DNA of 64,000 nucleotides from positions 1-64,000 of IMG/VR virus record IMGVR_UViG_3300020429_000529; one strand, written 5' to 3'. Below, in pieces: positions 7,223 through 59,443 of this stretch (positions within the stretch are counted from its first letter, which is position 1; every line of letters starts with the position of its first letter). Under the pieces are notes generated by a model that was not told where the DNA came from, searched no databases, and saw only the letters and a program-made list of their open reading frames with translations. This DNA comes from a virus. The translations under genes and the position numbers were made by a program.

Positions 7223-7426
7223 ATGAACTGGTATCGATCTATCTCGAAAGAATCTCAGGTTGCTGAGTCTGATCGGACTCTGCGGGATGAACTCAAGTGG
7301 GCGTTGCGTCATTTGGGTTTGTCGAGTCGTCGTTGCGATTGCGAAGACGAGGTAGCGATTGAGAATCTTGAGATAGCTCAGGAGTGCGTCAGAAGGGCTC
7401 TAAACATGGTGGAATCATCGCAATGA
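7223..7426 (+). CDS. small protein with NWY leader
   Basis: Starts MNWYRSISKESQ; ATGA overlap with the next gene. Confidence 0.7.
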   Translation: MNWYRSISKESQVAESDRTLRDELKWALRHLGLSSRRCDCEDEVAIENLEIAQECVRRALNMVESSQ

Positions 7427-9012
7427 ACTGGTACAAAGCTCTCAAGACAGCGATGCCGAGAGGTTACGGCGGTCGCAGGCGTCCGTACAAGGGTCCGCCC
7501 CGTTACTTCGGGCCGATGCGTCTGATCTCTTTTATGGGCAGGCCAACGATCGTCGGTAACACGATGAAGTTTGATCGCGCAACGCTTCAGCAGCTTGGTT
7601 TTAGCTGGCAGGGAAACACGGTCATCGACGGTACGCAGCTTGGGGATGCGCCAGACAACGCCATCAACGGAGCGATGATCGGTTCTCGTCCGCTTGCGCC
7701 TGAAGAGATCGAGATGCTTGCTCAGGGCGGCGTCGATGTTTCGATGGCTCAGACTCAGTTCCAGCCTTACAACGCTGCGGCGCAGCCTGTTGCTCCTGTA
7801 GATCCTGCGGTTGAGCAACCTGTCGATCCGTCTCAGCAGCCTGTTCAGCCCGAGGTTGGTCCTGACGGCATTGTTCCCGAGTCTGGAGCGCAGAGCGACG
7901 AGGCGAACATCGAGATGTTGATGGATCTGCGTTCTTCGTCTGGCAGTTATCAGGATACGAAGAATGTTGTTCAGACGCAGTTGAACAAGCTTGCGGATCT
8001 GATGTCGAATCCGAATCTGAGCGAGGAGCAGGCGAAGCTCAAGGAAGACTTCTTGAAGTTCATGTCTGGTTCGCATCAGTATTCGTTCTGGAACTCTATT
8101 CTGGTCTTTATGCAGCGTCGGGATGCCGAGATGGTTGGCGGCGCGAAAAATCGTTGGAACAAGGCCGGTCGTCAGGTGCGAGAGGGCGAAGATCCGATCT
8201 TTGTTCTTGCGCCGATCATTGCTGGTCAACGCAAGATGAGCCGAGAGCAATACTTCGGCATGCTCAACAATCTCAAGAACGAGGGCATGAGCGACGAAGA
8301 GGCGAAGGCTCGCATCAAGCGATACAAAGAGAGTACGGGCACTCTTGTCGGTTTCAAGGACGTTCCTGTCTACGACATCAAGCAGACTGATCCTATTCCT
8401 GGTTGGACTGATCCCAAGACCGGCGAGGGGCCTTTCGATCATGAGGGCTTCCATAACTCGTATCTCAATCAGTTCAACGAGCCCGAGGAACGAGCGGATA
8501 CGGTTTGGGGCGCTGCGACTCAGGCGATGCAGAACGCAGGTATTGACGTTGGTCAAGAGGCAACGGGTACTGCGGGCGGTTGGTCATCGGGCGGCAAGGT
8601 TCGCATCGATGAGGGGTCGCAGGGTCAGCGTCGAGTTGCAACGCTTTTCCATGAGTGGGCGCATGAGGTTTTGCATACGAACGCTGAGGGTCGGGCGAAG
8701 CGTCGAGAAGAGAAGACTCCCAAGCACATTATCGAGGCGGAGGCCGAGGCGACTGCTTGGTTGTTGAGTCAGGCGTTTGGATTGACTGGCGATCCTGAGC
8801 ATGCTGCTCGTTACATGCTTCTTTGGAAGGCAACTCCGAAGGAAGTCATGGAGCGTCAGGAAAACATCCACAAGGCGTACTCTCAGATTTACCGAGCGGT
8901 CAACGGTCAGATTGACAAGATGATTGCTGGTAAGCAGGAGCAGCCTCAGGCTCAGCCTGCGGGCGTTCGGGCATTTGTGGGTTGGTACGCTAACTTGCGC
9001 AAGGTTTCGTGA
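7423..9012 (+). CDS. ArdC-like ssDNA-binding domain fused to a zincin (HExxH) metallopeptidase, with NWY leader
   Basis: HQYSFWNSILVFMQ...WNKAGRQVREGE...VLAP...VYDIKQT (ArdC-N type); TLFHEWAHEVLH...EAEAE (zincin). Starts MNWYKALKTA and ends GWYANLRKVS. Confidence 0.8.
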   Translation: MNWYKALKTAMPRGYGGRRRPYKGPPRYFGPMRLISFMGRPTIVGNTMKFDRATLQQLGFSWQGNTVIDGTQLGDAPDNAINGAMIGSRPLAPEEIEMLAQGGVDVSMAQTQFQPYNAAAQPVAPVDPAVEQPVDPSQQPVQPEVGPDGIVPESGAQSDEANIEMLMDLRSSSGSYQDTKNVVQTQLNKLADLMSNPNLSEEQAKLKEDFLKFMSGSHQYSFWNSILVFMQRRDAEMVGGAKNRWNKAGRQVREGEDPIFVLAPIIAGQRKMSREQYFGMLNNLKNEGMSDEEAKARIKRYKESTGTLVGFKDVPVYDIKQTDPIPGWTDPKTGEGPFDHEGFHNSYLNQFNEPEERADTVWGAATQAMQNAGIDVGQEATGTAGGWSSGGKVRIDEGSQGQRRVATLFHEWAHEVLHTNAEGRAKRREEKTPKHIIEAEAEATAWLLSQAFGLTGDPEHAARYMLLWKATPKEVMERQENIHKAYSQIYRAVNGQIDKMIAGKQEQPQAQPAGVRAFVGWYANLRKVS

Positions 9013-9129
9013 GAACGGAAGGACAACAGCGGTCTGGTAAGTAGAACGCTGTAGGCGTCTTCGCCTCTATCTCTGAAACTCGGACGGACCTGGAAAACGG
9101 ATCGTCCCATATTTGAATGGTTTCATCTT

Positions 9130-9170
9130 AAGGCCCGACACGTCTTGCGAGACGTTGAAGGGTCTTTTTT
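9130..9170 (+). terminator. intrinsic terminator or attenuator-like hairpin
   Basis: AGGCCC..ACGTCT-TGCG-AGACGT..GGGTCT followed by a T-run. Confidence 0.6.
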
Positions 9171-9214
9171 CGCGCTACTTTTTGGTTCCCCAAGGGAACA
9201 GGAGACATCAGGAT

Positions 9215-10441: not shown

Positions 10442-10582
10442 ATGTTAGAGTGAAACCTGCAGTTACAAATTAAAGCTGCAGGTTAGTGTCGTGTCAGATG
10501 GCAGGGAGGAATCGCATCCGCTCTGACAGTAACCATAGGGACAGCATAAAGGCTGAAATCCCATCCATGGAGAGACCAGACA

Positions 10583-11131: not shown

Positions 11132-11439
11132 TGCCAGGCGAACTGCCTATCGATGAGGGACAGTTCGATGTCGGCGAACAAGTCGATGAAGGACTCAACG
11201 AAGAGATTGAAGATATACTTTCTTTGTCTCCCGATTTCGATGAGGCTGTCGATGACATGGTTTCAATACTCAACGGCCAGCTATCCCCAACGGGATGCTG
11301 GTCCGATTTCAACCGAGTCCACAGATTGTGGCGTCAGCTTCGCACGCTGTCTCAGCAGGCTCCGAATGTTTCGTTCTATCGACCAGAGGATTTGCCGCCC
11401 GAGCCTTCGCCAGACGACTTCAGCAACAATGATTGCTAA
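11131..11439 (+). CDS. acidic hypothetical protein
   Basis: TAATG coupling to the upstream gene. Confidence 0.65.
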   Translation: MPGELPIDEGQFDVGEQVDEGLNEEIEDILSLSPDFDEAVDDMVSILNGQLSPTGCWSDFNRVHRLWRQLRTLSQQAPNVSFYRPEDLPPEPSPDDFSNNDC

Positions 11440-11454
11440 GCCGAAGAGACAGGT

Positions 11455-11859
11455 ATGAACTGGTATCGCAAGTTAGCTCAGGCAGATCTTCAGACGAGAG
11501 TCCGCTCGCTGTTGCCTCAGCTTGTTCAGTCGGCTCAGAACGAATACAATCAATGGGATCAGTCTGATGAGTTCGATGAACTCAACGGCGGCGGTATCTG
11601 TCAGGAAATCGCATCCGCTTTTTGCGATGTCTTCTCATCCGCAGAAATTGATTGTACGACGTTTGACGCTCAGATCGGCGATCAGCATGTTTGGGCTGTC
11701 GCTTACGATGACAACGAAGCGATTAGCGTTGATATCCCTCCCTCTGTATATGAGACGGGCGCAGGATATACTTGGTCAAAAATACCTGGCGTTGTCTTTG
11801 ACGCAAACGATATCGTCTTTGAGCGAGTCGATCGCAACCAGATCGATACCGATTGGTAG
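11455..11859 (+). CDS. NWY-leader protein with a possible Cys-His-Asp (papain/transglutaminase-like) triad
   Basis: Starts MNWYRKLAQ; GGICQEIA...QHVWAV...VDIP. Confidence 0.7.
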   Translation: MNWYRKLAQADLQTRVRSLLPQLVQSAQNEYNQWDQSDEFDELNGGGICQEIASAFCDVFSSAEIDCTTFDAQIGDQHVWAVAYDDNEAISVDIPPSVYETGAGYTWSKIPGVVFDANDIVFERVDRNQIDTDW

Positions 11860-11885
11860 CCATTTGCGTAGCCGATTAGAGCCGA

Positions 11886-17643: not shown

Positions 17644-18469
17644 GCGACGAAGACAAATCGCCTACGAAGCCCTGCAGGGCATGTCTTCTCTCGAAGCTAT
17701 CGCCAAGGAACACAGCGTATCTGTCTCCAACGTCCGATCCGCATGCAAGCAGTTCGGCGTAGATCCCAAAGAAACAAAAGAGACTCTTGCGGGTAATGTT
17801 GCCCGAGCTATTGAACAAGGAATGGCTCGGGTTGATGCTATGCGCAAGTTCGGCGTTACAGCGAAGTTCATACAGAGCGCATGCTCAAAACACAAAGTTC
17901 TGATTGATCCAATCGGGAACAACTCTGAGCGGTCGTTTGAAATTCTGGCCGACCTGCTGAACACTCCTGATCCGATCACGATCATCGCCAACCGCCATAG
18001 CGTCTCTTCTTCTACGGTCAGCAAGCTCTACAATCTGGCGATCAGCAAAGGTTTTCCGATTATGCGCAGGCGGCAAGGGCAGTCTGCGGCGGAGCCTCAC
18101 CGAGTTACTCGCATCGGTATCTGCCTTGACGATGCCATTGATTTTGAACCCGACTTCTTTCGCAATCTGACGAGACGGCTTGCTCCGTATGCTCGTATCT
18201 ACATCATGGCTGGTCCTAACTGCGGATTGATTCGAGAGGTTGTCAGGGAACTTGAAGCCTTTGGCATTGTCTATCATCAGGTTGCCGTTGTTCATGATCG
18301 AGCCGAATACGTCAAGAGGCACAAGATTTCGGTTCTGATCGACGACAAAGACGACGTTATCACGGATCTCGGCTCTGACGTTCTGGTTATGAAGCCGAGA
18401 ACTGCTGGCAATTATGACTTCGAATCCCAAAAATGGCTCTATACAGAGGCCACTGGGGAACAGGTCTAA
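17609..18469 (+). CDS. multi-HTH protein fused to a degenerate HAD-like domain
   Basis: SLEAIAKEHSVSVSNVRSAC and ITIIANRHSVSSSTVSKL HTHs; C-terminal RIGICLDDAI...VLIDDK. Confidence 0.7.
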   Translation: MSQGMSQEERNRRRRQIAYEALQGMSSLEAIAKEHSVSVSNVRSACKQFGVDPKETKETLAGNVARAIEQGMARVDAMRKFGVTAKFIQSACSKHKVLIDPIGNNSERSFEILADLLNTPDPITIIANRHSVSSSTVSKLYNLAISKGFPIMRRRQGQSAAEPHRVTRIGICLDDAIDFEPDFFRNLTRRLAPYARIYIMAGPNCGLIREVVRELEAFGIVYHQVAVVHDRAEYVKRHKISVLIDDKDDVITDLGSDVLVMKPRTAGNYDFESQKWLYTEATGEQV

Positions 18470-18496
18470 AGGAAGGTTTGCCGATAGTCTCGAATA
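18468..18496 (+). promoter_or_regulatory. putative phage (late) promoter
   Basis: AAAGGA-N17-CGAATA, 7 nt before ATG 18504, with no RBS. Confidence 0.55.
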
Positions 18497-18503
18497 GAGA
18501 CTC

Positions 18504-18950
18504 ATGGCAGCCTTCAACTATAGCAAAATGAAAAAGCAAGCCGCTCGCCCTCAGGTAGGGCCGTGGTGGTACTACAAAGGGCAAGTCCATGGCGTCATGG
18601 AACCTGCCCCTTATCCGCTGGATTTCTCCTATTCCAAACTCATGCATGCACACTATTGGAGGCAAATGGGTCTTCCAGGAGGAAGCGAAGTTGCGCATGA
18701 AAGAGGACGGGTTGAGTCAACCCCGCAGGGTTTCGTCATAATTACCTCTGATACGATGGCTGCGAATCCCCAGGCCATGCAACAGGTGATGTCCTATTAC
18801 TCGATACCACCTGCACAGACTCGCGTAACCACTGACGAGCATTACAACAGAACAGCAGAAGATGAGATGTTCGAAGCGATGATGTCAGGTGAAGACGATT
18901 GGGGCAATGACTTCGATGACGGGTACTATTACGATGAAGAGGCTGCCTGA
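18504..18950 (+). CDS. hypothetical protein with FNY/KxA leader
   Basis: Starts MAAFNYSKMKKQAA; contains H..YW...ERGRV; acidic tail. Confidence 0.75.
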   Translation: MAAFNYSKMKKQAARPQVGPWWYYKGQVHGVMEPAPYPLDFSYSKLMHAHYWRQMGLPGGSEVAHERGRVESTPQGFVIITSDTMAANPQAMQQVMSYYSIPPAQTRVTTDEHYNRTAEDEMFEAMMSGEDDWGNDFDDGYYYDEEAA

Positions 18951-19040: not shown

Positions 19041-19111
19041 GCTCCGTTAGCTCAGAGGTAGAGCGCTTGTATCTGGGACAGGGTGCGGCGGTTCGAATCC
19101 GCCACGGAGCC
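19041..19111 (+). tRNA. tRNA-like gene, anticodon CTG (Gln), atypical
   Basis: Cloverleaf: acceptor GCTCCGT/ACGGAGC, D arm GCTC/GAGC, anticodon stem CTTGT/ACAGG with loop ATCTGGG, T arm GGCGG-TTCGAAT-CCGCC. No encoded CCA. Confidence 0.75.
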
Positions 19112-19145
19112 TTTTGTTTCGACAGTCAACATGAAAGGAAATCTG

Positions 19146-34067: not shown

Positions 34068-34346
34068 ATGAACTGGTACTCAAATCTTAGAAAGACCGCT
34101 CAGTTTGGCGGCGAAGAAGTCGTCGATGATGGTATCTCTATTGATTCGCGTCCTCGTCGATATCGGGGATCGATCATCTTTGAGGTACGAGTTCCTGACG
34201 GCCAAGACCAATCGATCAACAACGAAAGAGCCAGAGAAGCCGCTGAGGATCTGTTGAGCAGACTTCAGGGTCATGTGGGCGACGAGGTTCTGTTTGTTGA
34301 TGAAAACTCGCTGACGGACATCAGCGGTCCCGGTCTGCCTGGCTAA
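34068..34346 (+). CDS. small protein with NWY leader
   Basis: MNWYSNLRKTAQF; GGAG RBS. Confidence 0.75.
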   Translation: MNWYSNLRKTAQFGGEEVVDDGISIDSRPRRYRGSIIFEVRVPDGQDQSINNERAREAAEDLLSRLQGHVGDEVLFVDENSLTDISGPGLPG

Positions 34347-35058: not shown

Positions 35059-35670
35059 CTACGAGAGACGGATAGCTTGATCGATGATGTCGTCAAGAAT
35101 GGTCTCTGAAGCGTACCAACCGACAGGTCCGCCAGTAATGAAATCCTGAACGTATTCGTTGTAGGCGTTTCGCCATTTGCTTCGGTCATCATTTGATGCG
35201 CGGCAAAGTCTTTTGCGAGTAAGGCCCGTTGCTTCTTTGGCATGAGCTTCCGCTTCTTTGCGCAGGTCAGCCCATTCGGAGACGGTTTCGGTAATCGGTC
35301 CCCAGTGCAGAAGCCGTTCATCTTGGGAAATGGCCCATTGATCGATATTGAACTGGCTGAACTTGAGGTATTTCTTGGTGAAGGAGACCGCTCGCGGGTT
35401 GAACCCCTCGTCTTCAAGCTCGTTGGAAGGGATCTCAAACGCTCCGAACGGCGTTTTATCGATCGCGAGAAGGTCGCCCGAGTTGAAGTTGCACCTGACC
35501 AGAAGGTCAACGTCTTTGATGTTGAACTTAGGATTGGATATGTTCTCAGCGAACGATCCCCAGACGTAAACGCCTTCTACGTCTGGCAGCGCAGCGATTT
35601 CCGCCGCTGCTTGGCGGATGTATTCGTCGGCGTCCCCGACAGTCGGCATGGCTCTTTCGTACCAGCGCAT
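35059..35670 (-). CDS. Pol-beta-type nucleotidyltransferase with WY leader
   Basis: Starts MRWYERAMP; VYVWGSFA...KDVDLLV. Confidence 0.75.
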   Translation of the reverse strand: MRWYERAMPTVGDADEYIRQAAAEIAALPDVEGVYVWGSFAENISNPKFNIKDVDLLVRCNFNSGDLLAIDKTPFGAFEIPSNELEDEGFNPRAVSFTKKYLKFSQFNIDQWAISQDERLLHWGPITETVSEWADLRKEAEAHAKEATGLTRKRLCRASNDDRSKWRNAYNEYVQDFITGGPVGWYASETILDDIIDQAIRLS

Positions 35671-37887: not shown

Positions 37888-38929
37888 TCGTCGCCCGATT
37901 GCGGTCATCAATGCATACGGACACAACACAAGTCCTTGCTCAACTGACGATGACTATCCCGAAGAGATTGAGAGGTACGGAGCATGTTGGTGGCGAGGCC
38001 CCAATGCTACGACTAATCTCATCAGCAGGATTCAGGGTCACTACGATGCTGGTTATCGCCGCATTATGATGAACCGTCCCAACGGAACAACGGAGCATCC
38101 TCTTGTTCCGAGTCCGATTTGGGGAGCGTTGTTCGACTATAAGAAGGCGCAATGGCTCGATGAACTCAAGGAATACTTGACCTCGATGCCCGATCTCGAT
38201 TTTGGTATCTACTACGGTTTTCGCCCGACAAGTTCTTGCGAAAGCTTTGATATGTCAAGTTCGAACATTCGAGTTCCAGATCTTACAAGACGAGAAGACG
38301 TTGAATGGTACAAGTGCAACTATGGCCCTCTAAGGGACATAGGGGTTAAGTTCTTGATTCTTGATACAGCGGCAAGCGATTCTAACAGAGGCGCTTTTGA
38401 GGAACTTGCTGCAATCATGTGGTCTCATGGCATCAAGCTTATGGGCGAAGCTATTCCTAAGCTACAGAATCAGACTCTTCCTAATGGGCAGACTGGTAAC
38501 TTAATTGATTCTGATGCTCTTGATCGAGGCTCATACATCTTCCTTGAACAGCATATTCGAAATGGCGCTGCAAACCAGAATGGTTGGCCGTATTGGGAGA
38601 TTGATTCATCAACCCAAGAGGCTCATCTGATGTTGCAGGGTAACTCGAATCTTGGAACCGATGTTCAAACGCCAGATTCAGAGAACTTTCTTCAAGACTG
38701 GTTTTCAAGAGGCTTTACGGTAAGCGTCTGGAATGTCGGAGCATGGTTTTACAACTATGTTATACAGACTTTCGGAGGTTCGGGAGTCGGCATTGATATG
38801 CCAACAGGATTCCCGTTTATAGCTGGTCAGTTTGGGCATAGTATCGGTTCTCAATCAGGAACCGTTGTTTCAGGAAGCACCACGGCTTCGGCGCAGACTG
38901 GATCTACGCAAATACAACAGAACTTTTAG
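37844..38929 (+). CDS. putative glycoside-hydrolase-like domain protein (paralog of the C-terminus of 14970-16694)
   Basis: RRPIAVIN...GYRRIMMNRPNG...DFGIYYGF...DIGVKFLILD...MGEAIP. Confidence 0.7.
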   Translation: MPQTNTEWTLSPTIDRRPIAVINAYGHNTSPCSTDDDYPEEIERYGACWWRGPNATTNLISRIQGHYDAGYRRIMMNRPNGTTEHPLVPSPIWGALFDYKKAQWLDELKEYLTSMPDLDFGIYYGFRPTSSCESFDMSSSNIRVPDLTRREDVEWYKCNYGPLRDIGVKFLILDTAASDSNRGAFEELAAIMWSHGIKLMGEAIPKLQNQTLPNGQTGNLIDSDALDRGSYIFLEQHIRNGAANQNGWPYWEIDSSTQEAHLMLQGNSNLGTDVQTPDSENFLQDWFSRGFTVSVWNVGAWFYNYVIQTFGGSGVGIDMPTGFPFIAGQFGHSIGSQSGTVVSGSTTASAQTGSTQIQQNF

Positions 38930-39768
38930 GGCGAGATGGATTGCATCATCTCGACAAGCATGTTGTCTCGGTTGCCTGTCTGGTTTTCGCGGAACCATCT
39001 TGAATCCATCATCTCTTCAGCCGCCCAGTTGTAGTCTTGTTGTCGAAGGGCCTTCTGTAGCTCTTTGAATCCCCGGAGACGAGGGCCTCCCATGTTGTAG
39101 GCCATGTCGATGATGACTTTCTGAGCGGTTGGATGCAGGTTATTGAGTCCTCCGCTAAACTCGTTCGCAATATCGTATGCTTCTTTGATTACATGATTAC
39201 GAAGACTGTCGGCATCTGATCGAGTGATTGCTTCTGAGCCATCATGAACAGCTTGGAAGTTGTGACCAAGATTTTCAATAAGCTGACGAGCATCAGGACG
39301 GTTTAGGTTGAATCCAAACCCGATCGATCGGTTTGTTGGCGTGTCTTGATACGAGTAGGGTTCAAACCCTTCGTTGTCAGAAACAAACTCAGCCATCTCT
39401 TCAAAAGAGATCAAGGAGTTAGACTGCCTGGGCTGTTCGGCCTGAGGTTCTGGTTGCGGCGCAGCTTCAGGCGCGGGCTGCTGAATCTGCGGAGCCTGAT
39501 AAAGTTGCTGAGCTTGAGGTTGCGTTATTTGCTGAGCAGGTCGAGACTGTATAGTCTGAATCACCTGCCTGGGGATTTGCTGAAGTTGGGCTTCGGCAAC
39601 ATCTGGCTGTTGCTCGACCATTTGCCTTGCTTGTTGAGCAGGCATCCCAAAATAGATGGCGAGAAGCATGACAGATCCTCCGATTCCAAGAGTTGAAAGG
39701 AGGGTCGTGTTGAACTGTCGCCAGTTCCAGTCGCCATCTGCTTGAATTTGCCGATACCAGTTCTGCAT
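38926..39768 (-). CDS. GH24 (T4-like) lysozyme with NWY leader, TM helix and Q/P-rich linker
   Basis: NEGF..YSYQDT...SIGFGFNL; IDMAYNMG..RL.GF..L..AL...DY..AAEEMMDSRW; starts MQNWYRQIQA. Confidence 0.88.
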   Translation of the reverse strand: MQNWYRQIQADGDWNWRQFNTTLLSTLGIGGSVMLLAIYFGMPAQQARQMVEQQPDVAEAQLQQIPRQVIQTIQSRPAQQITQPQAQQLYQAPQIQQPAPEAAPQPEPQAEQPRQSNSLISFEEMAEFVSDNEGFEPYSYQDTPTNRSIGFGFNLNRPDARQLIENLGHNFQAVHDGSEAITRSDADSLRNHVIKEAYDIANEFSGGLNNLHPTAQKVIIDMAYNMGGPRLRGFKELQKALRQQDYNWAAEEMMDSRWFRENQTGNRDNMLVEMMQSISP

Positions 39769-39775
39769 ACCCATA

Positions 39776-39803
39776 TATTCGGCTTTGGGGCCGAGCTTCC
39801 TTC
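39776..39803 (-). promoter_or_regulatory. putative phage (late) promoter
   Basis: GAAGGA-N16-CGAATA, 7 nt before the ATG of MQNWY. Confidence 0.55.
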
Positions 39804-39881
39804 AACTTTTGTGTCGAAGGACTTTTGATGTAAGGTTTGAAAGGGAATTGGTCGATTAGACCATTAAGAGAGCGAGCGAAA

Positions 39882-46956: not shown

Positions 46957-46992
46957 GTGACTCACTGAGCGCTCTCAGGTCAGTCGGACGAT

Positions 46993-50140: not shown

Positions 50141-50143
50141 TGG

Positions 50144-52371: not shown

Positions 52372-52925
52372 TGCCAGATCCTAATGCCCTTGAGGGCAAG
52401 CAACCAGCACAAACATACCAGGACTTGTTCCATCTGAACAACTCCAACAACGGCCTTGACGGTACGTTGCGGTACATCTATTCGGCGAATGGGACCGTAA
52501 CGACTCTACAGATATCGGATGAGGCTTTTGCAGCAGATTGCAACTATCAGAATATCGCAAGACCAACTCTTGTAAGGCCAGCAGAGAAAGCCTTGAGCGT
52601 TACGCAGGCTACTTCTGATCCTTACGCAGTCGATCTTGCAAACGGTAACACTTTTGATATAACACTTGAAGGCAGCATCACAACCATGACAATAACCGGC
52701 CTTCCTCCTGACGATGGAGTTACGAGGGCGGTTGAAGTGACCTTTATCCTGACCCAAGCGGGCGCAGGCAGTTTTACTGTGTCATGGCCTTCTGGTACGA
52801 AGTGGGCGGGCGGAACAGCGCCGACGCTTACTACGACAGCGGGTAGAATTGATATCATCAAGCTGCTAACGGTGGATAGGGGAACGACTTGGCTTGGTTC
52901 CATTGTGGCCCAAGACTTGCAATAA
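52371..52925 (+). CDS. virion structural / tail-fibre-associated protein
   Basis: C-terminal LTQ.G.GSFTVSWPSGTKWAGGTAPTLT...DII domain, common in phage fibre proteins. Confidence 0.7.
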   Translation: MPDPNALEGKQPAQTYQDLFHLNNSNNGLDGTLRYIYSANGTVTTLQISDEAFAADCNYQNIARPTLVRPAEKALSVTQATSDPYAVDLANGNTFDITLEGSITTMTITGLPPDDGVTRAVEVTFILTQAGAGSFTVSWPSGTKWAGGTAPTLTTTAGRIDIIKLLTVDRGTTWLGSIVAQDLQ

Positions 52926-52929
52926 TGCC

Positions 52930-55900
52930 ATGGCTAAGAAAAAGAAGTCTGATGACCTGCAAAGCATACTGCGGAACCTTCAGCAGCATGTAAAGACAGA
53001 AAACGCTAAGTTCAATCTGTCGAAACTTCCGAGTATCATCGAGTTCGTTGAGAACAAAGAATGGCTCGGCATGAAGCACTATGCGCAGCCAGTTAAGCTG
53101 CGACCCATGCAGCTTGTTCTGCTGAAGTGTTTCTACAGAGGTAGCCCGGGTAACGAAGACCTTGCGCTGACCGAAGATGAAATTCAACTCATCAAAGAAA
53201 GCGGACTCACAACAGATGAGAGCGGTGACGTTCTTGCAAAGTGGGCGGAAGGCGAGATCTTCAGGGAACTCATTCTCGTGTGGGGTCGCCGTTGCCTCTC
53301 TGAAGACGCAACGATATTTGATCCAACGCAAGGTCGAACCACTCGACTTGGAGAGCTTTGGAACAACGGAGAAACCGATGTTGTTTCGCTGAGCTACGAT
53401 GAAAACGAAGAGCGAATGAGGATCATGACAGATTGCGAGTTGCTCTCTAACGGAGTGCGACCCGTCTTTCGTCTAAGGACTCGTAGCGGTCACGAGATTG
53501 AAGCAACCGACAACCATCCCATGCTGACAAACGAGGGATGGAAAGAGGTAAAGGATCTCAAGGAAGGCAATCTTGTTGCTATCGCTCCGAAAGTCCCGTT
53601 CTTTGGAGATCGCAAAGACCTGAGCGAAAAAGAAGCTGCGCTGCTTGGCTACATGTCGAGTCAGTCTTTCTTTTCGGCAGGAGGTCATGTTGGTATTGCC
53701 ACCGATGATATTGATGCCGTCAATGACTTCTTTCAGAAGGCCCAAGAGCTGTACGGCAACAATGTCGAGATGGGTAAGGCTTCCGAATACTCGGTTTCTG
53801 CCGCTTCAATGTCGAAGAAGCCCTTCTCGTATGTTTGTCTCCAAAACTGCAAAGAACCATCAGCCACATCAACAAAGCAGGCTGTCAAGAACTGCAACAA
53901 TCTTCCTTGCCTGTTTCTAATCAATGGTCTGAAGGACAAGGATTCTGAACACAAGTTTGTACCTGTCAGAATCGATCAGGCCCCAAGAGAGATAATTGAG
54001 TCATACCTTCGGGCTCTGTTTAGCGCAGACGGATCTATCATTGAGAACAGAGATCAGTTCTCAATCGAAATGTACGTTGGTAATCGGGATATGGTCTTGC
54101 AGCTACAAAGGCTGCTGCAGAGGTTTACTATCTTTTCATCGTTTGTACCAGAGGGTAACGGTTTTCGACTGTCAATGACCCGCAGGCACGATGTCAAGAT
54201 GTTCCTTGACCATATTGGCTTTGTCAACAAGACAGAACAGATTCTTCGCTTCCGAAAGATTCATCAGAAGGTTCCTGTTGAAGAAGATCTGATCTTCGTT
54301 CCTGTTGATTCGATTGTTGCTATCGGAGAGAAGCAGACTTTCGATATTGCTGTATCTCACAAGCCTCATCTGCAGAACTTTGTCTCAGACGGTTTTGTAG
54401 TTCACAATAGCGGCAAGGGATTCATTACCTCGGTAATCGCCCTGTATGAGGCTATGAAGCTTCTTGAGGCACCTGGCGGAAATCCCTATGCTCAGTACGA
54501 ACTGGCAACCGCTGCTCCGTTCTTGATTTTGACCATCGCTAACTCGGCAGAACAGGCCAAGCACTTGTTCAAAGAGATTCGCGACAAGATCATGTTGAGC
54601 GAATACTTCAAGGACCGTCTTGATGATGAGCATCTGACAAATGATTCTCTGGTATTCTTGACGCCGCACGATATCAATCAGAACGAAGATCTTGCGAAGC
54701 GAGGACTTCCCCCAAGAGAGGGTTCGGTTCGTATCGTTTCAGGTCACTCTAACTCTGACTCTCTCGTTGGTATGTCGTGTTACTGCTTGCTTCTTGACGA
54801 GATCGGTCTCTACAAGAATACGGCAGGATCTTCTTCTGGCGACCAGATCTACAACTCGCTGGCTCCCGCTGTTAAGACGTACATCCGAAAGCAGCCTATT
54901 TTTGACACAAGGACAGGCGAGCCCAAGTTGGATGACAACGGAGAGCCGGTGACGAAGGATGTCTTCGATGGCAAGATCATCTGTATCTCGTCTCCGCGAG
55001 GTAAGGAAGGTATCTTCTTTGACCTGTATTCTCACGCTCATGAGGTTTCTCACCGATTGATGATGAGGCTTCCAACATGGAAGGTCAATCCTCAGATGAC
55101 CGAGGCTGCGCTGCGGGCCGACTTCCCCAATATGCCGGAAGAGAAGTTCCGCATGGAGTTTGGGGCAGAGTTCTCGGGCACGGGCGGCGAGTCATTCTTC
55201 CCCCGAGATGCTGTCGAGGCTTGCTTCGAGAGAAGAGGTCTCAAAGACATCAACATGGGCAAACCTGGTATTGTTTACTTTGCCCATCTTGATCCTGCGT
55301 TGTCAAGTCACAACTACGGTATGGTTGTTTGTCACAAAGAAGTGTATCTCAACCAAGAGACCAAGCAAAGAGATTTCAGAATCGTCATCGATCATGTCAA
55401 GCATTGGGCTCCGACGCCCGATAAGTTGATTTCGGTCAATGATGTCGATAGTTACATCATGGCCCTAAACAGGCGGTTCCACTTTGGTCTTGTTTCGTAT
55501 GACCAATGGAACAGTCAGCAGAGTATCCAAAAGTTGCGCCGTATCGGTATGCCTGCGATTGAAACCAGATTTTCGCGCAACTACAAGATGATGATTTACG
55601 ACAATCTGTACGAGCTTGTAGCTTCGGGCAGACTTTTGATTCCCGACCATACGGCGAGTCACAATCTTCTAAAGCTGGAAATGATTAACTTGCAGAAGAA
55701 ATACCTGGCGACAGGTGGATATCGAGTTTTGCCCAAGGCGGACGGCGATATTTTGACCGATGACCTCTGCGATGCGTTGGCAGGAGCCTGTTTCAATGCA
55801 ATGGATCGCACTACTCGCAAGCTTCCGCAAGGAAAACTTGTCAACACGCCAGTATCTACACAACAGCAAGTATTCAGACAGATGCAGGGACCGATACCCG

Positions 55901-56013
55901 ATCAGCAACTCTCCAACATGTCTCCGGGACTGAGAAGATGGGTTGATCACACAAGAGGGCAAGGGCCTGACTCTAACATTGTTCCACGAAACCCGAATCA
56001 ATGGAGGCCATAA
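52930..56013 (+). CDS. terL: terminase large subunit (intein-containing)
   Basis: LRPMQ, Walker A GRR|SGK split by an intein, Walker B LLLDEIG, ISSP, nuclease AHLDPA...YDQWNS...DDLCDALA. Confidence 0.92.
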   Translation: MAKKKKSDDLQSILRNLQQHVKTENAKFNLSKLPSIIEFVENKEWLGMKHYAQPVKLRPMQLVLLKCFYRGSPGNEDLALTEDEIQLIKESGLTTDESGDVLAKWAEGEIFRELILVWGRRCLSEDATIFDPTQGRTTRLGELWNNGETDVVSLSYDENEERMRIMTDCELLSNGVRPVFRLRTRSGHEIEATDNHPMLTNEGWKEVKDLKEGNLVAIAPKVPFFGDRKDLSEKEAALLGYMSSQSFFSAGGHVGIATDDIDAVNDFFQKAQELYGNNVEMGKASEYSVSAASMSKKPFSYVCLQNCKEPSATSTKQAVKNCNNLPCLFLINGLKDKDSEHKFVPVRIDQAPREIIESYLRALFSADGSIIENRDQFSIEMYVGNRDMVLQLQRLLQRFTIFSSFVPEGNGFRLSMTRRHDVKMFLDHIGFVNKTEQILRFRKIHQKVPVEEDLIFVPVDSIVAIGEKQTFDIAVSHKPHLQNFVSDGFVVHNSGKGFITSVIALYEAMKLLEAPGGNPYAQYELATAAPFLILTIANSAEQAKHLFKEIRDKIMLSEYFKDRLDDEHLTNDSLVFLTPHDINQNEDLAKRGLPPREGSVRIVSGHSNSDSLVGMSCYCLLLDEIGLYKNTAGSSSGDQIYNSLAPAVKTYIRKQPIFDTRTGEPKLDDNGEPVTKDVFDGKIICISSPRGKEGIFFDLYSHAHEVSHRLMMRLPTWKVNPQMTEAALRADFPNMPEEKFRMEFGAEFSGTGGESFFPRDAVEACFERRGLKDINMGKPGIVYFAHLDPALSSHNYGMVVCHKEVYLNQETKQRDFRIVIDHVKHWAPTPDKLISVNDVDSYIMALNRRFHFGLVSYDQWNSQQSIQKLRRIGMPAIETRFSRNYKMMIYDNLYELVASGRLLIPDHTASHNLLKLEMINLQKKYLATGGYRVLPKADGDILTDDLCDALAGACFNAMDRTTRKLPQGKLVNTPVSTQQQVFRQMQGPIPDQQLSNMSPGLRRWVDHTRGQGPDSNIVPRNPNQWRP
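53293..54408 (+). mobile_element. intein (372 aa) with LAGLIDADG-type endonuclease domain
   Basis: N-terminal CLSEDATI, block B ATDNHPML, AALLGYM and YLRALFSADG, C-terminal NFVSDGFVVHN followed by Ser(+1). Confidence 0.95.
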
Positions 56014-56931
56014 ATGGCTTACAATCACAGGAAACTTTCGAAGAAGGCCGACGATACTCCCAAGCAGTACGAAGGCCAGCTTCAGGATTACAACGATGAC
56101 CTTGGCGAAACTGTTGAGGCCAGCCCAGAGTCCGTACAGGGGCTTCTTCGTTCTACAAGGGGCGAGGGACAGGGCGAGAACCTCGATGTTGTCACGGACA
56201 TCCAGTTGGACGAAGAGCGAGATAACGACGGCAAGACTGCCGAGACGATCGAGGCTCAGTTTGACAAGAGAAAGAGCTATCAGCCCCATAGAGACAGTCA
56301 GGCTGATGATGCTCCCATGATGCCCATCAATGCGCTGAGCGAAGGCTACGACCAAACTCATCGCAAGGCATTCAATGCCCGTCAGTCGAAGCTTGACTCT
56401 GAGAAGAGAGTTGTAGATAAGGACATCGGCAAGCAGCTTTCCGGGCCGAGGACCAAGCAGCCTCGTCAGGTTCCGACAAGCGGGACTCAGCTTGTGAACC
56501 ATCCCGATCGTCTTGCTTCTGGTAATCAGAAGAAGATGGCTCTTGCCGCCCTTAAGGATGCTGATGCTGTTCTGTTCTACCTTCATTACAAGGCGGCGAG
56601 CGAGAATCGTCCGCTGACAGAGAGGGAGAAGAAGATCGAATCTCAGATCGCAATTGATAAGAGAACGATTCTTTCGCAGTTCCAGGACCAAGACTTTGAC
56701 GAGCAGGGAAACCCTATTGCACAGCCAGCAGATCAGCAGGCCAATGCGGGAGCGGGCGTGCCCGAGAGCGTCATCATCGATGATCTTCTTGGAGATCAGT
56801 CAATCGCTGGCGACATGGGCCTCGGCGATATGGACATGATCGAGCAGGGAGATCCAAGGTTCAAGGATATTCATCACAGAGAGCAGGCTGAGATCGACGC
56901 AGAGCGTAATGGTTTCGAGTACCTCGACTAA
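56014..56931 (+). CDS. putative head/internal protein
   Basis: Directly after terL; starts MAYNHRKLSKKAD. Confidence 0.75.
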   Translation: MAYNHRKLSKKADDTPKQYEGQLQDYNDDLGETVEASPESVQGLLRSTRGEGQGENLDVVTDIQLDEERDNDGKTAETIEAQFDKRKSYQPHRDSQADDAPMMPINALSEGYDQTHRKAFNARQSKLDSEKRVVDKDIGKQLSGPRTKQPRQVPTSGTQLVNHPDRLASGNQKKMALAALKDADAVLFYLHYKAASENRPLTEREKKIESQIAIDKRTILSQFQDQDFDEQGNPIAQPADQQANAGAGVPESVIIDDLLGDQSIAGDMGLGDMDMIEQGDPRFKDIHHREQAEIDAERNGFEYLD

Positions 56932-57539
56932 TGGCATTCAACTATCGCCAGTTCAAGATGGCTCAGCAGAGGGGCCAGTATCCCTCTCACTCGCTGCCTG
57001 CAACGGACCGCGAGCGATGGTTGCGCCAAAAGGAAGACCCTTACGCCCCTCACAAGCCTGGCGATGGCAAGGGGCCAAAGCTAACTACACCTGGTAGCGA
57101 GGGCATGATGGGGCAGCCGCCCGATCCTGGCTTTCAGGCAGGAGGCAAAGAGCGAAAGGGCTACCCAACGGGCATTAGTCAGTTTGAAGATCCCGCAGAC
57201 AGCGAGAAGTTCCGAGTCGTACCTTCTGATTCAGATCCCGATGATCCATTCTCTGGTAAGTCAAGAGGAGAGGGCAAGGGAGAGTACGGCAAGGGTCAGG
57301 GTACTGATTACGGACAGGCCCTCCATGACGATCGCAATGTTCATACGGACGGCTATGAGAATCACACCCTCGGCATTGAGGAAACTGTAAAAAGAGATCT
57401 GGACGATGATAGAAGAGATCGCCCGCCAGCGATCACAACCATGCCCGCGCCCCCAGAGAATCCGTTTAATCGGAGATTGAAGAGAAATGGGCCGATGAGT
57501 TATGTAAGAGAGCGGTTGCGCGCCGCATCGAGGAGGTAA
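56931..57539 (+). CDS. putative head/internal protein with FNY/KxAQ leader, disordered
   Basis: MAFNYRQFKMAQQ; G/P/D-rich. Confidence 0.75.
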   Translation: MAFNYRQFKMAQQRGQYPSHSLPATDRERWLRQKEDPYAPHKPGDGKGPKLTTPGSEGMMGQPPDPGFQAGGKERKGYPTGISQFEDPADSEKFRVVPSDSDPDDPFSGKSRGEGKGEYGKGQGTDYGQALHDDRNVHTDGYENHTLGIEETVKRDLDDDRRDRPPAITTMPAPPENPFNRRLKRNGPMSYVRERLRAASRR

Positions 57540-57542
57540 CTG

Positions 57543-58274
57543 ATGAGAAGTTTCAAGATTAGAGTAACGGACAAGTGCAAGGGCGAACTGACCCTCAAGG
57601 CGACGAGGAAGGCGCTTCGACGCAACTGGGTATCAACGCTCACAGAAGAAGAGCTTGCTGATCCCGATACGCAGATCCACTTGCGAGCAGGTCGTATCGA
57701 GCTTCTGGATGATGAAAAGCCGATCGTTGAAGGGAAGTATTTCCGTTCGACTACGCATCGCATCCTTACGCTCGGCGGTCTCAACCGCATCATCAACCAG
57801 AACCAGACATTCTTTGTTAACGAGCCCGATCTCGATGATTCTCAGTTGAATGACTACATCGACAAGGGTTGGTTCATCGAAGTGACTGACGAAGAGGCTG
57901 CTCCGAAACCCAAGAAGTCGGCCTCCAAGAAGTCTTCAAAGAAGACCGCCAAGAAGACATCGAAGAAGGCAGCTTCCAAGAAGTCCAACGAGAAGTCTGC
58001 GGTCTCGAAGACCAAGGTTGTCAAGCAGGCCGCAAGCGAGGAAGAGCAGGATGAGGCGAACGTCCAGGCTCAGGCCGACTCGACGCCAGAAGGCATGTAT
58101 GTTCATGTTCCCGATGGCAGCGATGCTCCCGCCCCTCGCCGCACGCCCAAGAACGAGACGATTCTCGATCTCGATCTTGACGGACCCGATGATGATGGCC
58201 TGTCGTTCGTCGATCAGGAGCAGCGAGAAGAACGTAAGCTGCCCGTTGCTAAGGACAATGCGGAGGTGGAGTAA
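57543..58274 (+). CDS. hypothetical protein with histone-H1-like KKxSKK repeat
   Basis: GGAGG RBS; KKSASKKSSKKTAKKTSKKAASKK. Confidence 0.8.
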   Translation: MRSFKIRVTDKCKGELTLKATRKALRRNWVSTLTEEELADPDTQIHLRAGRIELLDDEKPIVEGKYFRSTTHRILTLGGLNRIINQNQTFFVNEPDLDDSQLNDYIDKGWFIEVTDEEAAPKPKKSASKKSSKKTAKKTSKKAASKKSNEKSAVSKTKVVKQAASEEEQDEANVQAQADSTPEGMYVHVPDGSDAPAPRRTPKNETILDLDLDGPDDDGLSFVDQEQREERKLPVAKDNAEVE

Positions 58275-58276
58275 GG

Positions 58277-59017
58277 TTGCTTGAGCTTCTTGAAAAAGAG
58301 CTTACGGTTCATCGTATCAAGCCCATCAGCAGGCACGTTTGCGTCTGCGACGGGACGAAGATGACCGTGCGCGAATGCAGCAAGAAGCATCGAAATTCCG
58401 CGCAACTGAATAAGAAGATCATCCTTCGCATGTGGGCGGAGCTATGCGAGCTTCTCAGAGATGAGGACATGGGCTCGCCAGATCCTAAGACTGCGAAGCT
58501 TTTTATTCCCGCGCTCCAAGGACTCTACAGGTTGTCTTGTTGTTTTCCTCAGCTTGAGCAGAACGGCACGGTATCCTGTCTCAAGGACGCCCTCAACAGA
58601 GATTCTGATTCGTTCTCAGGCAGAACGATGGGCAAGGTTGTTGAGTTCAAGCTCACAATCAACTGGCTCCATCATCTCATCAGACGAGACCTCTACATCT
58701 GCGCTCTGCTTGAGAAGTTCAGAGACGCAGCGAGAGGGCTCAAGGTAGAGGCCCGAGGAGTCGCAGGTCCCTGGGCTAACCTCGATCTTCCCATGTTGGA
58801 GAGAACATTCCCATGGGAGGATGTTGAGGAAGAGACTGCGGGTAGAGAAAAAGACAAGCGACACCAGCGTAGGTATGAGCTTGGTCTGGAAAACTATGGA
58901 GAAGGGGATACGACGCCGAACGAAGGCTTCTATTGGCGAGAGATCAGAAACGAACCCTATGCGTTCGATGATGAAGACGAGACGCTGTACCCTCACCGCA
59001 ACGTTCTTTGGAACTAA
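58277..59017 (+). CDS. hypothetical protein
   Basis: GGAG RBS, TTG start, in the structural operon. Confidence 0.7.
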   Translation: MLELLEKELTVHRIKPISRHVCVCDGTKMTVRECSKKHRNSAQLNKKIILRMWAELCELLRDEDMGSPDPKTAKLFIPALQGLYRLSCCFPQLEQNGTVSCLKDALNRDSDSFSGRTMGKVVEFKLTINWLHHLIRRDLYICALLEKFRDAARGLKVEARGVAGPWANLDLPMLERTFPWEDVEEETAGREKDKRHQRRYELGLENYGEGDTTPNEGFYWREIRNEPYAFDDEDETLYPHRNVLWN

Positions 59018-59026
59018 GGAACAGCA

Positions 59027-59443
59027 ATGGAACTCATCAAACAAGCACAACACTCTCTGTACGACTACCTCTTGAACATCATGCCCGAGTTGGGCGATGG
59101 CAACTTCAAGATCATCATACGAGAGAAGTCAGATCCCAACGCATCGAAGCTCTACAACCTCTGGCAAGACGCCGAGAGCAAGCTCTCCGAGAGACGCTTT
59201 CGTCGTCCTCCGACCATGAGCGAGACGGATGTCAAGGCTCTTGAGCGTAGCGGCTTCATCGAGATGCAGGGCAGTAATATGAAGATCACAAACAAGGGCG
59301 TCGTTGCGATTCGCAAGATGATTCTTGATGACGATTCGTTTGCTCTTGCCAAGTCTGCGGCTTCGCAGGGTATGAGGAAGGTTGCTTCGGTTCGTTCTCA
59401 TGGTTCGTCAAACTGGTATCAGAGATTAAAGAGTGCCAACTGA
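59027..59443 (+). CDS. winged-helix-like protein with C-terminal NWY/KxA tag
   Basis: VKALERSGFIE...KITNKG; ends RKVAS...SNWYQRLKSAN. Confidence 0.7.
   Translation: MELIKQAQHSLYDYLLNIMPELGDGNFKIIIREKSDPNASKLYNLWQDAESKLSERRFRRPPTMSETDVKALERSGFIEMQGSNMKITNKGVVAIRKMILDDDSFALAKSAASQGMRKVASVRSHGSSNWYQRLKSAN

What the first reader, a model, noticed from the sequence alone, without database searches (positions are those of the whole stretch)
7223..59443. Shared 'NWY...KxA' peptide tag on unrelated proteins: candidate capsid-targeting and protease-cleaved cargo-loading system
Seen: near-identical short N-termini on dispersed genes with unrelated bodies. These are 7223 MNWYRSISKESQ, 7423 MNWYKALKTAM (ArdC-like metallopeptidase), 11455 MNWYRKLAQ (Cys-His-Asp protein), 34068 MNWYSNLRKTAQ, 35670(-) MRWYERAM (nucleotidyltransferase) and 39768(-) MQNWYRQIQA (lysozyme). 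A variant FNY/YNH form occurs at 18504 MAAFNYSKMKKQAA, 56014 MAYNHRKLSKKAD and 56931 MAFNYRQFKMAQ. The tag also occurs at C-termini: GWYANLRKVS* (9012) and SNWYQRLKSAN* (59443). Consensus: aromatic pair, short basic amphipathic stretch, then K/R-x-A-(Q/S/x). Known: T4 internal proteins carry a ~10-aa capsid-targeting leader (MKTYQEFIAE type) that the prohead protease removes. Inference: this is an analogous but different address label. It would load enzymes (anti-restriction/ssDNA protector, wall hydrolase, nucleotidyltransferase, protease) into the head for injection, with cleavage after K/R-x-A.
Basis: partly seen in the sequence, partly recalled or inferred. Interest (0 to 1): 0.9.

Follow-up and report, generated by a model that had tools for sequence, protein, structure and literature searches.

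The report
Shared NWY address tag, huge phage
Many unrelated proteins of this 498-kb uncultivated phage and its many relatives carry the same roughly ten-residue peptide (N-W-Y, a basic turn, then K-x-A-Q). It most likely labels enzymes for loading into the phage head and release there by the head protease, but no virion has been examined.

Summary
In the whole 498,568-bp genome, 'NWY' occurs 29 times in six frames. Of these, 13 sit just after a start codon and 2 just before a stop, where about 1 of each is expected. Two proteins carry the tag at both ends.

The tag is a virus-specific, position-independent linear motif:
- Orthologues keep it, including the C-terminal copies.
- AlphaFold models it as a flexible short helix off the fold.
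- It heads at least 78 unrelated protein families in a large clade of huge phages related to Bacillus phage G.
- Phage G itself lacks it, and so do prokaryotic genomes.

Two lines of indirect evidence favour capsid loading:
- The cargo is what other phages fuse to head proteins (InPase, ArdC-like peptidase, ART, 2H, lysozyme).
- The tag's end, [KR]-x-A-Q, belongs to [KR]-x-A-[Q/S], the most enriched short pattern in the head-module proteins of three of the four clade genomes scanned. It is also enriched in the fourth, and it is densest in a 1946-aa protease-scaffold fusion.

Packaging, cleavage and the receptor are not shown. The FNY/YNH 'variants' are not above chance.

This scan found the same tag earlier on other genomes. 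I found no description of it in the literature library. Confidence in capsid loading: about 0.5.

The parts
7223..7258 (+). N-terminal tag MNWYRSISKESQ of a 67-aa ORF (7223-7426)
   Evidence: (21.8 bits)
7423..9012 (+). 529-aa ArdC-like protein with HExxH. N-terminal tag at 7423-7455, C-terminal tag GWYANLRKVS at 8980-9009 after a P/Q/A-rich linker
   Evidence: both tags kept in orthologues P0180/P0181
11455..11859 (+). 134-aa protein of unknown function, tag MNWYRKLAQ at 11455-11481
   Evidence: orthologue in L129 starts MWYKLAQ
34068..34346 (+). 92-aa protein, tag MNWYSNLRKTAQ at 34068-34103
35059..35670 (-). 203-aa protein with a GS...DxD (nucleotidyltransferase-like) motif, tag variant MRWYERAM at 35647-35670
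   Evidence: orthologues start MSSWYEK / MTWYTK; no Pfam or PDB match
38926..39768 (-). 280-aa protein: tag MQNWYRQIQA (39739-39768), Gly/Ser-rich membrane segment, Q/P-rich linker, phage lysozyme domain
59027..59443 (+). 138-aa head-module protein with C-terminal tag NWYQRLKSAN (59411-59440) after a Ser-rich linker. Its N-terminus holds I-K-Q-A-Q
   Evidence: (26.5 bits)
18504..18545 (+). claimed FNY variant (MAAFNYSKMKKQAA); not supported beyond chance
56014..56966 (+). claimed YNH and FNY variants at the starts of two adjacent head-module genes (56014, 56931). Not supported beyond chance, though 56931 ends its leader in K-M-A-Q
52894..56013 (+). large terminase with an intein; start of the head module, which runs to the major capsid gene at genome 77364-78257
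60695..64000 (+). head-module genes of unknown function carrying [KR]-x-A-Q sites (60695, 62082, 62851, 63609). The densest carriers lie just beyond the window: 64403-65605, and the 1946-aa protease-scaffold fusion at 70883-76723

Best explanation
The peptide is a capsid-loading address in two parts.
- Docking part: the first part (Asn/Ser cap, Trp-Tyr, a basic amphipathic turn ending in Leu/Ile-Lys) is a short docking helix on a flexible linker. It binds a phage-encoded component of the assembling head. The best candidate is the scaffold-protease core; the shell protein is possible.
- Release site: in N-terminal copies the tag runs straight into [KR]-x-A-Q. This is a site of the kind the head maturation protease cuts throughout the scaffold, so the label is removed and the enzyme is left free in the head.

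The cargo would then be injected with the DNA. It includes an ArdC-like DNA binder/peptidase, a pyrophosphatase, a wall hydrolase, a nucleotidyltransferase-like protein and many small proteins. In relatives it also includes ADP-ribosyltransferases, 2H/Acb1 phosphoesterases and acetyltransferases.

Shown here: the tag, its modular and position-independent nature, its restriction to one phage clade, the cargo classes, and the concentration of the K-x-A-[Q/S] pattern in head modules.

Inferred: binding, packaging, cleavage and injection.
For: (1) Terminal enrichment of the tag is far beyond chance.

(2) It is modular.
- 130 tagged ORFs from relatives fall into 78 unrelated body clusters.
- The copies after a protein body (two C-terminal, one internal) follow Ser- or Pro/Gln-rich linkers; the internal copy has linkers on both sides.
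- In the AlphaFold model of the InPase, body blocks have pLDDT of 71-97, mostly about 90. The two tags are low: the first ten-residue block averages 52, and residues 167-175 are below 50. Both form short helices.

(3) It is conserved through divergence.
- InPase orthologues at 54-66% identity keep an N-terminal W-Y or Y-F tag, while distant homologues lack it.
- ArdC-like orthologues at 52-56% identity keep both the N- and the C-terminal tag.

(4) It is specific to this virus clade.
- Exact MNWY starts number 8, 14, 12 and 10 in four genomes with MCPs 81-82% identical, against 0 for the reversed-pattern control.
- Bacillus phage G has none (MCP 52% identical).
- 596 Gb of prokaryote genomes give 11 hits, about my own rough estimate of the number expected by chance.

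(5) The cargo is of the packaged kind.
- This InPase family is fused to minor head (MuF-like) or portal proteins in cultured phages, and to the prohead ClpP-like protease in Tenacibaculum phage Larrie.
- Iyer et al. 2017 (PMC5512222) predict that InPase, ArdC-N plus metallopeptidase, and ART domains are packaged and injected.
- Tagged relatives carry ART-PolyVal, 2H-SAK, Acb1, GNAT, cREC_REC and HicA.

(6) The array of about 17 consecutive tagged small genes in L074 resembles, from my own memory and not checked here, the polymorphic internal-protein loci of T-even phages, which share only their targeting leader.

(7) Link to the head protease.
- [KR]xAQ occurs 23 times in 7,593 aa of head-module proteins (2.4 expected), against 60 in the other 141,140 aa (44 expected).
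- The 1946-aa fusion carrying the head-protease domain has 10 sites against 0.95 by its own shuffles. K.AQ is its single most enriched 3-residue pattern.
- The enrichment repeats in G004, G005 and G008 head loci. It is absent from the other loci of G004, G005 and G002; the G008 'other' set is enriched too, but one of its loci lies just past the capsid gene.
- One site is conserved in all five orthologues.
- [KR]xAS is also enriched in the head module of tag-less phage G (13 against 3.1). The pattern therefore belongs to the head machinery, not to the tag.
- 42 of 130 tags hold [KR]x[AS]Q in their first 16 residues. The stricter [KR]xAQ occurs in 25 tags, against 0-1 in each of the next three 16-residue windows.
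Against: - No virion proteome, N-terminome or structure exists for any member, and the nearest cultured relative lacks the tag. Packaging and cleavage are therefore untested.
- Most tagged genes lie far from the head module. They lack the strong Shine-Dalgarno sites of the structural genes and instead have a -10-like CGAAxA box a few bases upstream. Their timing relative to head assembly is unknown.
- Only one of the ten K-x-A-Q sites of the giant protein is conserved in position.
- C-terminal tags have no K-x-A-Q, so they would stay attached.
- One large paralogue family has K-x-A-L-P instead.
- The tagged lysozyme has a membrane segment like that of a signal-anchor-release endolysin (my reading, from general knowledge of that class). 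Such a protein would not be expected in capsids.
- The capsid protein's own conserved I-A-Q near its N-terminus lacks the K/R.
Confidence: 0.5

Rival explanations
1. The tag is a docking motif for a hub that is not the capsid. One phage-encoded (or host) protein would grip all tagged enzymes through a hydrophobic groove. It would gather them into a complex or compartment in the infected cell, such as a non-covalent version of a polyvalent protein or a replication/defence-evasion factory. The K-x-A-Q resemblance to head proteins would be coincidental.
For: The motif is position-independent, flanked by linkers, flexible and found on many enzyme families, which fits any short linear docking motif. 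Tagged genes are dispersed, clustered with conflict-type genes rather than with head genes, and have different translation signals from structural genes. Phage G builds a related capsid without the tag.
Against: It does not explain why the end of the N-terminal tags is the pattern that marks head-module proteins in four genomes. It also does not explain why the cargo families are those fused to head proteins elsewhere. A host hub is less likely because host genomes do not use the motif.
Confidence: 0.22
2. The tag is only a processing or turnover signal. It would be a propeptide removed by a phage protease to activate or time the enzymes, or a degron read by a protease at either end, with no role in targeting.
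For: A third of the tags contain the K-x-[AS]-Q pattern. Degrons are known at both N- and C-termini (general knowledge of ClpXP signals).
Against: The invariant part is N-W-Y, not the putative cut site. C-terminal and internal copies keep N-W-Y...L-K but lack K-x-A-Q. A protease domain fused to the scaffold would be active inside proheads, so substrates must get there anyway.
Confidence: 0.1
3. The tag is a membrane-targeting amphipathic helix, like the terminal helices of MinD, FtsA or MreB, placing enzymes at the inner membrane.
For: It is a short basic amphipathic helix with Trp/Tyr that works at either terminus. Two carriers have a membrane segment right after it.
Against: The common short form (N-W-Y-K-x-A-Q) has only two large hydrophobic residues over two turns. 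Near-invariant N-W-Y across 78 families points to a specific protein pocket, since lipid-binding helices are not conserved in sequence between unrelated proteins (general knowledge). There is also no link to the head-module pattern.
Confidence: 0.05
4. The conservation is at the nucleotide level: a start-region element for translation of leaderless or short-leader mRNAs, or a recombination cassette that shuffles gene 5' ends.
For: Tagged genes lack Shine-Dalgarno sites and start 5-10 nt after a promoter-like box. N, W, Y and K have few synonymous codons.
Against: C-terminal and internal copies exist and are conserved. Start codons vary (ATG, GTG, TTG), AAC/AAT and TAC/TAT alternate, and N is replaced by S, T or G. 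Tags also head genes inside tightly packed operons.
Confidence: 0.03

Closest known systems
Capsid targeting sequence (CTS) of phage T4 internal proteins IPI-III and Alt (Mullaney and Black 1996, as summarised in PMC5694885)
   Same: A leader of about 10 residues shared by otherwise unrelated, fast-evolving small proteins and an injected enzyme. It ends in the cleavage motif of the prohead protease, which also cuts the scaffold core many times. The cargo acts on host defences after injection.
   Different: The sequence is different (N-W-Y...K-x-A-Q against the T4 leader ending in I-A-E), and so is the capsid lineage (a small HK97-type MCP related to phage G). Here the tag also works at C-termini, internally and at both ends of one protein. 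Dozens of cargo families carry it rather than a handful. Nothing has been shown experimentally.
Encapsulin cargo-loading peptides
   Same: A short peptide on a flexible linker, at either terminus, directs diverse enzymes to the inside of an HK97-fold shell.
   Different: Encapsulin peptides are Gly/Ser/Leu-rich, bind the shell protein directly and are not removed. Here the receptor is unknown and a cleavage-type motif follows the tag.
Polyvalent proteins and MuF/portal-fused effectors (Iyer et al. 2017, PMC5512222)
   Same: The domain repertoire is the same (ArdC-N plus zincin peptidase, InPase, ART-PolyVal, 2H, GNAT, lysozyme) and the presumed purpose, delivery with the DNA, is the same.
   Different: There the domains are fused covalently into giant proteins or to head proteins. 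Here each is a separate gene product carrying a common peptide: an unbundled solution.
Long propeptides of ejection proteins in phiKZ-like giant phages (SPN3US, 201phi2-1; PMC5694885)
   Same: Head and ejection proteins are processed at a short motif by the prohead protease, and the propeptides are thought to target the proteins to the prohead.
   Different: Those propeptides are 80-160 residues long and protein-specific, with an S/A/G-x-E motif. They are not a common 10-residue label.
Herpesvirus assemblin-type maturation sites ((V/L)-x-A|S; from general knowledge)
   Same: Ala at P1 and Ser (here Ser or Gln) at P1', with repeated sites in scaffold proteins. Phage prohead proteases share the assemblin fold.
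   Different: P3 is Lys/Arg here. The protease family of this phage was identified only by PHROG matches, and no cleavage data exist.

Membership tests
T4-type capsid targeting sequence | Short leader shared by unrelated proteins of one phage | tested here: met
T4-type capsid targeting sequence | Leader ends in the prohead-protease cleavage motif that also recurs in scaffold and core proteins | tested here: inconclusive
   [KR]xA[Q/S] is the top-enriched pattern in head modules and ends a third of the tags, but cleavage itself is not observable here
T4-type capsid targeting sequence | Strictly N-terminal propeptide | tested here: not met
   C-terminal, internal and double tags, conserved in orthologues
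T4-type capsid targeting sequence | Tagged proteins present in virions with the leader removed | not testable with these tools
   no cultured member carries the tag; phage G lacks it
T4-type capsid targeting sequence | T4-like head genes (gp23 MCP, gp21 protease) | tested here: inconclusive
   PF07068 and PF03420 gave no match, but the controls did not ring either. The MCP matches phage G gp27 and PHROG 2522 instead
Encapsulin cargo-loading peptide | Terminal peptide on a flexible linker, at either end of the cargo | tested here: met
Encapsulin cargo-loading peptide | Binds the inner face of the HK97-fold shell protein | not testable with these tools
   the one co-fold job gave no verdict (see Tried and rejected)
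Polyvalent proteins | Several effector domains in one polypeptide | tested here: not met
   tagged proteins are mostly single-domain or small
Polyvalent proteins | Domain repertoire: ArdC-N, MPTase, InPase, ART, 2H, GNAT | tested here: met
Membrane-targeting amphipathic helix | About 10 or more residues with several large hydrophobic side chains on one face, and a sequence that varies between proteins | tested here: not met
   the short form has only W and Y; N-W-Y is nearly invariant across 76 unrelated representatives

The most novel reading that the evidence does not exclude
An abundant, uncultivated clade of huge phages uses a programmable protein-packaging code. A 7-10-residue W-Y helix, usable at either end of any protein, docks it on the protease-scaffold polyprotein of the prohead. 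The protease itself may be the receptor, since the short tag is little more than an extended K-x-A|Q substrate. The same protease then releases the cargo. Dozens of separate anti-defence enzymes would thus be injected with the DNA, in place of the giant fused polyvalent proteins of other phages.
Probability: 0.35. Interest if true: 0.8.

Novelty: new variant of a known kind. Interest (0 to 1): 0.68.

Why it matters
If the reading is right, this is the second sequence-defined capsid-targeting label known in tailed phages after T4's. It is far more widely deployed: at least 78 cargo families, 8-14 exact copies per genome, and more than 1000 related capsid-protein clusters in metagenomes.

It would give a simple rule for listing the injected proteome of huge phages that cannot be grown. 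It would flag dozens of unknown small proteins as likely first-minute anti-defence effectors. It would also offer a very short, end-independent tag for loading foreign proteins into large capsids.

The head-module pattern [KR]-x-A-[Q/S] is also a testable prediction of the specificity of a prohead protease family that has not been studied.

Tried and rejected
- **Co-fold of the capsid protein with the doubly tagged InPase** (alignments A1 and A2): no verdict (score 0.00).
- **Pfam families for T4 gp23 and gp21 in the genome**: nothing, and the controls did not ring, so uninformative.
- **Relatives of the FNY-variant gene 56931 in viral contigs**: none, so the variant could not be tested through orthologues.
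- **PDB sequence searches** with the nucleotidyltransferase-like protein, the ArdC-like protein and the protease domain: no matches.
- **Megablast of 8.6 kb against GenBank phages**: no match.
- **Literal search of papers for the tag strings**: only noise. The polyvalent-protein and jumbo-phage papers do not mention such a tag.
- **Promoter analysis**: an AAGG-N15-17-CGAAxA box precedes most tagged operon-first genes. It also precedes RNR and some structural-region genes, so it does not settle the timing.
- **Idea that the tag 'dialect' (W-Y against Y-F) switches genome-wide:** rejected, because L129 has both forms side by side.
- **Tenacibaculum phage Larrie** (InPase-protease fusion starting M-N-I-Y-E-K-I-K-K-A-E): it has no other tagged gene.
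- **Co-occurrence of K-x-A-Q with the tag as a clean two-way link:** weakened, because tag-less phage G also has [KR]xAS enriched in its head module.
- **RWYRKIQ in the 3261-aa Kelch/LamG protein:** rejected as a tag.

Full report
**What the window is.** The window is the first 64 kb of a complete 498,568-bp virus record with direct terminal repeats, 51.8% G+C and 88% of its genes on one strand.
- It holds phage genes: an NAD-dependent ligase, ribonucleotide reductase, an M36 peptidase, a lysozyme, and a large terminase with an intein.
- The head module starts in the window and continues beyond it. In order it holds the terminase (52894-56013), about twelve unknown genes, the portal (66324-68651), proteins of 146 and 573 aa, a 1946-aa protein, a decoration-like protein, and a 297-aa major capsid protein at 77364-78257.
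- The first ~190 residues of the 1946-aa protein match head maturation protease families. The rest is charged, low-complexity and scaffold-like.
- The capsid protein is 52% identical to gp27 of Bacillus phage G (497 kb). It is 78-91% identical to each of the 120 best-listed protein clusters, out of 1,082 clusters with E <= 1e-20. This is a member of a large uncultivated clade of G-like huge phages.

**The observation.** All quoted termini are there.
- Across the genome, NWY occurs 29 times in six frames. Thirteen sites lie within three codons of a usable start of an ORF of 60 aa or more, and two lie within 12 residues of a stop. About one of each is expected. Permutations of the three residues show no such bias.
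- A weight matrix gives 14 sites at 21-34 bits and nothing else above 16.
- In the window the carriers start at 7223, 7423, 11455, 34068, 35670(-) and 39768(-). The tag is C-terminal at 9012 and 59443.
- Outside the window there are six more N-terminal copies, three of them on consecutive genes at 305130-303261(-). There is also an internal copy between two linkers at residue 808 of a 914-aa CCA-adding/HD enzyme.
- Two proteins are tagged at both ends: the ArdC-like protein (7423-9012) and an inorganic pyrophosphatase of the polyvalent-protein type.
- The FNY/YNH forms are not above chance.

**Nature of the tag: protein level and modular.**
- Start codons vary and synonymous codons alternate. 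The Asn is replaced by Ser, Thr or Gly.
- The C-terminal copies follow Ser-rich or Pro/Gln/Ala-rich linkers.
- The AlphaFold model of the pyrophosphatase (26-row alignment, mean pLDDT 83) has a confident body. Both tags are low-confidence short helices that do not pack on it.
- InPase orthologues at 54-66% identity keep an N-terminal W-Y or Y-F tag of variable length ahead of the conserved domain start. Distant homologues, including Bordetella phage PHB04, do not.
- ArdC-like orthologues at 52-56% identity keep both the N-terminal and the C-terminal tag. More distant ArdC-N proteins have neither.

**Distribution.**
- A pattern scan of viral contigs found 98 loci, 54 of them heading ORFs of 50 aa or more. 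One has nine matches in 13 kb. Read in full, that locus is an array of about 17 consecutive tagged genes.
- Complete or large relatives with capsid proteins 81-82% identical carry 14, 12 and 10 exact MNWY starts, against 0 for the reversed-pattern control.
- From the loci fetched, 130 tagged ORFs fall into 78 clusters with unrelated bodies.
- Phage G, read in full, has no such tag.
- In 596 Gb of prokaryotic genomes the eight-residue form occurs 11 times, about my own rough estimate of the number expected by chance. The label is therefore viral and clade-specific, not a borrowed host signal.

**What the cargo is.**
- In this genome: an ArdC-like protein with a zincin motif, InPase, a lysozyme behind a membrane segment, a nucleotidyltransferase-like protein, a CCA-adding/HD enzyme, and small unknowns.
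- In relatives: GNAT acetyltransferases, ART-PolyVal, 2H-SAK and Acb1-type phosphoesterases, cREC_REC, a P-loop kinase-like domain, HicA, and helix-turn-helix proteins.
- This InPase family sits inside 'minor head protein', portal-annotated or 'mega' proteins of cultured phages. In Tenacibaculum phage Larrie it is fused to the ClpP-like prohead protease next to a structural protein gene.
- Iyer et al. 2017 argue that exactly these domains are packaged and injected (PMC5512222).

**Link to the head protease.** A note from an earlier agent on another genome (e1-5379519) prompted me to test whether the tag's end recurs in head proteins.
- [KR]xAQ occurs 23 times in the 7,593 residues of the head module (2.4 expected). 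It occurs 60 times in the other 141,140 residues (44 expected).
- The protease-scaffold fusion has 10 sites against 0.95 in 5000 shuffles of its own sequence, and none of the shuffles reached 10. In an unbiased scan of all three-residue patterns, K.AQ is its top hit.
- The enrichment repeats in the head loci of G004, G005 and G008 (12, 9 and 12 against about 2). It is absent from the other loci of G004, G005 and G002. The G008 'other' set is enriched too (7 against 1.2), but one of its loci lies just past the capsid gene. First residues were excluded so that the tags themselves are not counted.
- K.AQ ranks second among all patterns in the pooled head proteins of G000, G004 and G008. K.AS is first in G000.
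- After [KR]xA, the next residue is Gln, Ser or Thr four to six times more often than expected in all four head modules.
- Phage G's head module shows the Ser form (13 against 3.1) but not the Gln form.
- One site is conserved in all five orthologues of the giant protein; the others are not.
- Among 130 tags, 42 have [KR]x[AS]Q within 16 residues of the start. The stricter [KR]xAQ occurs in 25 tags, against 0-1 in each of the next three 16-residue windows.
- A small residue at P1 followed by Ser is the specificity of assemblin-type proteases, to which phage prohead proteases are related in fold. That is general knowledge and was not tested here.

**Reading.** The most economical model is a two-part label: a W-Y docking helix, plus, in N-terminal copies, a head-protease site that releases the cargo.
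- It works like the T4 capsid targeting sequence (PMC5694885). It is not a member of that family: the sequence and the head lineage differ, and the tag is not confined to N-termini.
- Its end-independence is closer to encapsulin cargo-loading peptides.
- The cargo repertoire makes it an unbundled counterpart of polyvalent proteins.

**Caveats.**
- Nothing shows packaging or cleavage.
- The receptor is unknown, and the single co-fold job gave no verdict.
- Tagged genes are mostly far from the head module.
- They have no Shine-Dalgarno sites, and a promoter-like box lies just upstream, unlike the structural genes. Their timing is open.
- The lysozyme could be a signal-anchor endolysin.

I therefore put capsid loading at about 0.5, a non-capsid docking hub at about 0.2, and the other readings lower.

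**Novelty.** The same tag was noted earlier in this scan on other genomes (e1-5468524, e1-5379519, e1-3497796, e1-5679375). I found no description of it in the paper library.

New here:
- the conserved C-terminal, internal and double tags;
- the flexible-helix model;
- the absence from phage G and from prokaryote genomes;
- the count of cargo families;
- the four-genome, unbiased test of the head-module pattern.

Noticed in passing
genome 70883-76723 (just beyond the window; locus L127:6883-12723): A 1946-aa protein fuses a head maturation protease domain to a long charged, partly acidic, low-complexity region. That region holds five I-T-Q-x-Q-L repeats (about aa 555-690). The C-terminal Q-L-R-x-x-Y-[RGK] tail is conserved in four orthologues of 1834-2028 aa. 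Phage G's protease is only 300 aa.
   Followed up: partly
window 7160-7222, 11400-11454, 39769-39810(-), 18440-18503: Tagged operon-first genes have no Shine-Dalgarno site. Instead an AAGG-N15-17-CGAAxA box ends 5-10 nt before the ATG, giving near-leaderless mRNAs. Structural genes (portal, protease fusion, capsid) have strong GGAG sites. The -10 part resembles sigma-28 promoters (resemblance from memory).
   Followed up: partly
L074:387-8310 (IMG/VR contig of 82 kb): An array of about 17 consecutive tagged genes directly downstream of a subtilisin-like protease gene. It includes about a dozen diverging paralogues of a ~125-aa family that start MNWY[KR]xIKxALP.
   Followed up: partly
L008:1734-3455 (Tenacibaculum phage Larrie, ON950054.1): The InPase domain is fused to the N-terminus of the ClpP-like prohead protease. 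The protein starts with a tag-like M-N-I-Y-E-K-I-K-K-A-E, and it is the only such start in that genome.
   Followed up: yes
window 52894-56013: The large terminase is interrupted by an intein with a LAGLIDADG homing endonuclease domain.
   Followed up: no
genome 66324-68651 (L127:2324-4651): The portal protein carries a C-terminal HNH/DUF559-like endonuclease region (PHROG 559, 503).
   Followed up: no
L126:6809-11125 (G003): A run of about a dozen ~75-aa genes, each an SH3-like K-x-G-D-x-V module ending in F-x-D-K-I-K-D-R-L. A similar module follows the internal tag of the 914-aa CCA-adding enzyme of this genome (259603 onward).
   Followed up: no
window 34068-34103 and 8980-9009: The forms N-W-Y-S-N-L-R-K-T-A-Q and G-W-Y-A-N-L-R-K-V-S resemble the 'RpoH box' of sigma-32 (F-F-N-L-R-K-T-K-Q, recalled from memory and not checked). 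This is probably coincidence, but it is a lead for a chaperone or RNA-polymerase-core contact.
   Followed up: no
window 19083-21107: A phage-encoded fungalysin-type (M36) metallopeptidase, Pfam E 2e-67, which is unusual in a phage.
   Followed up: no
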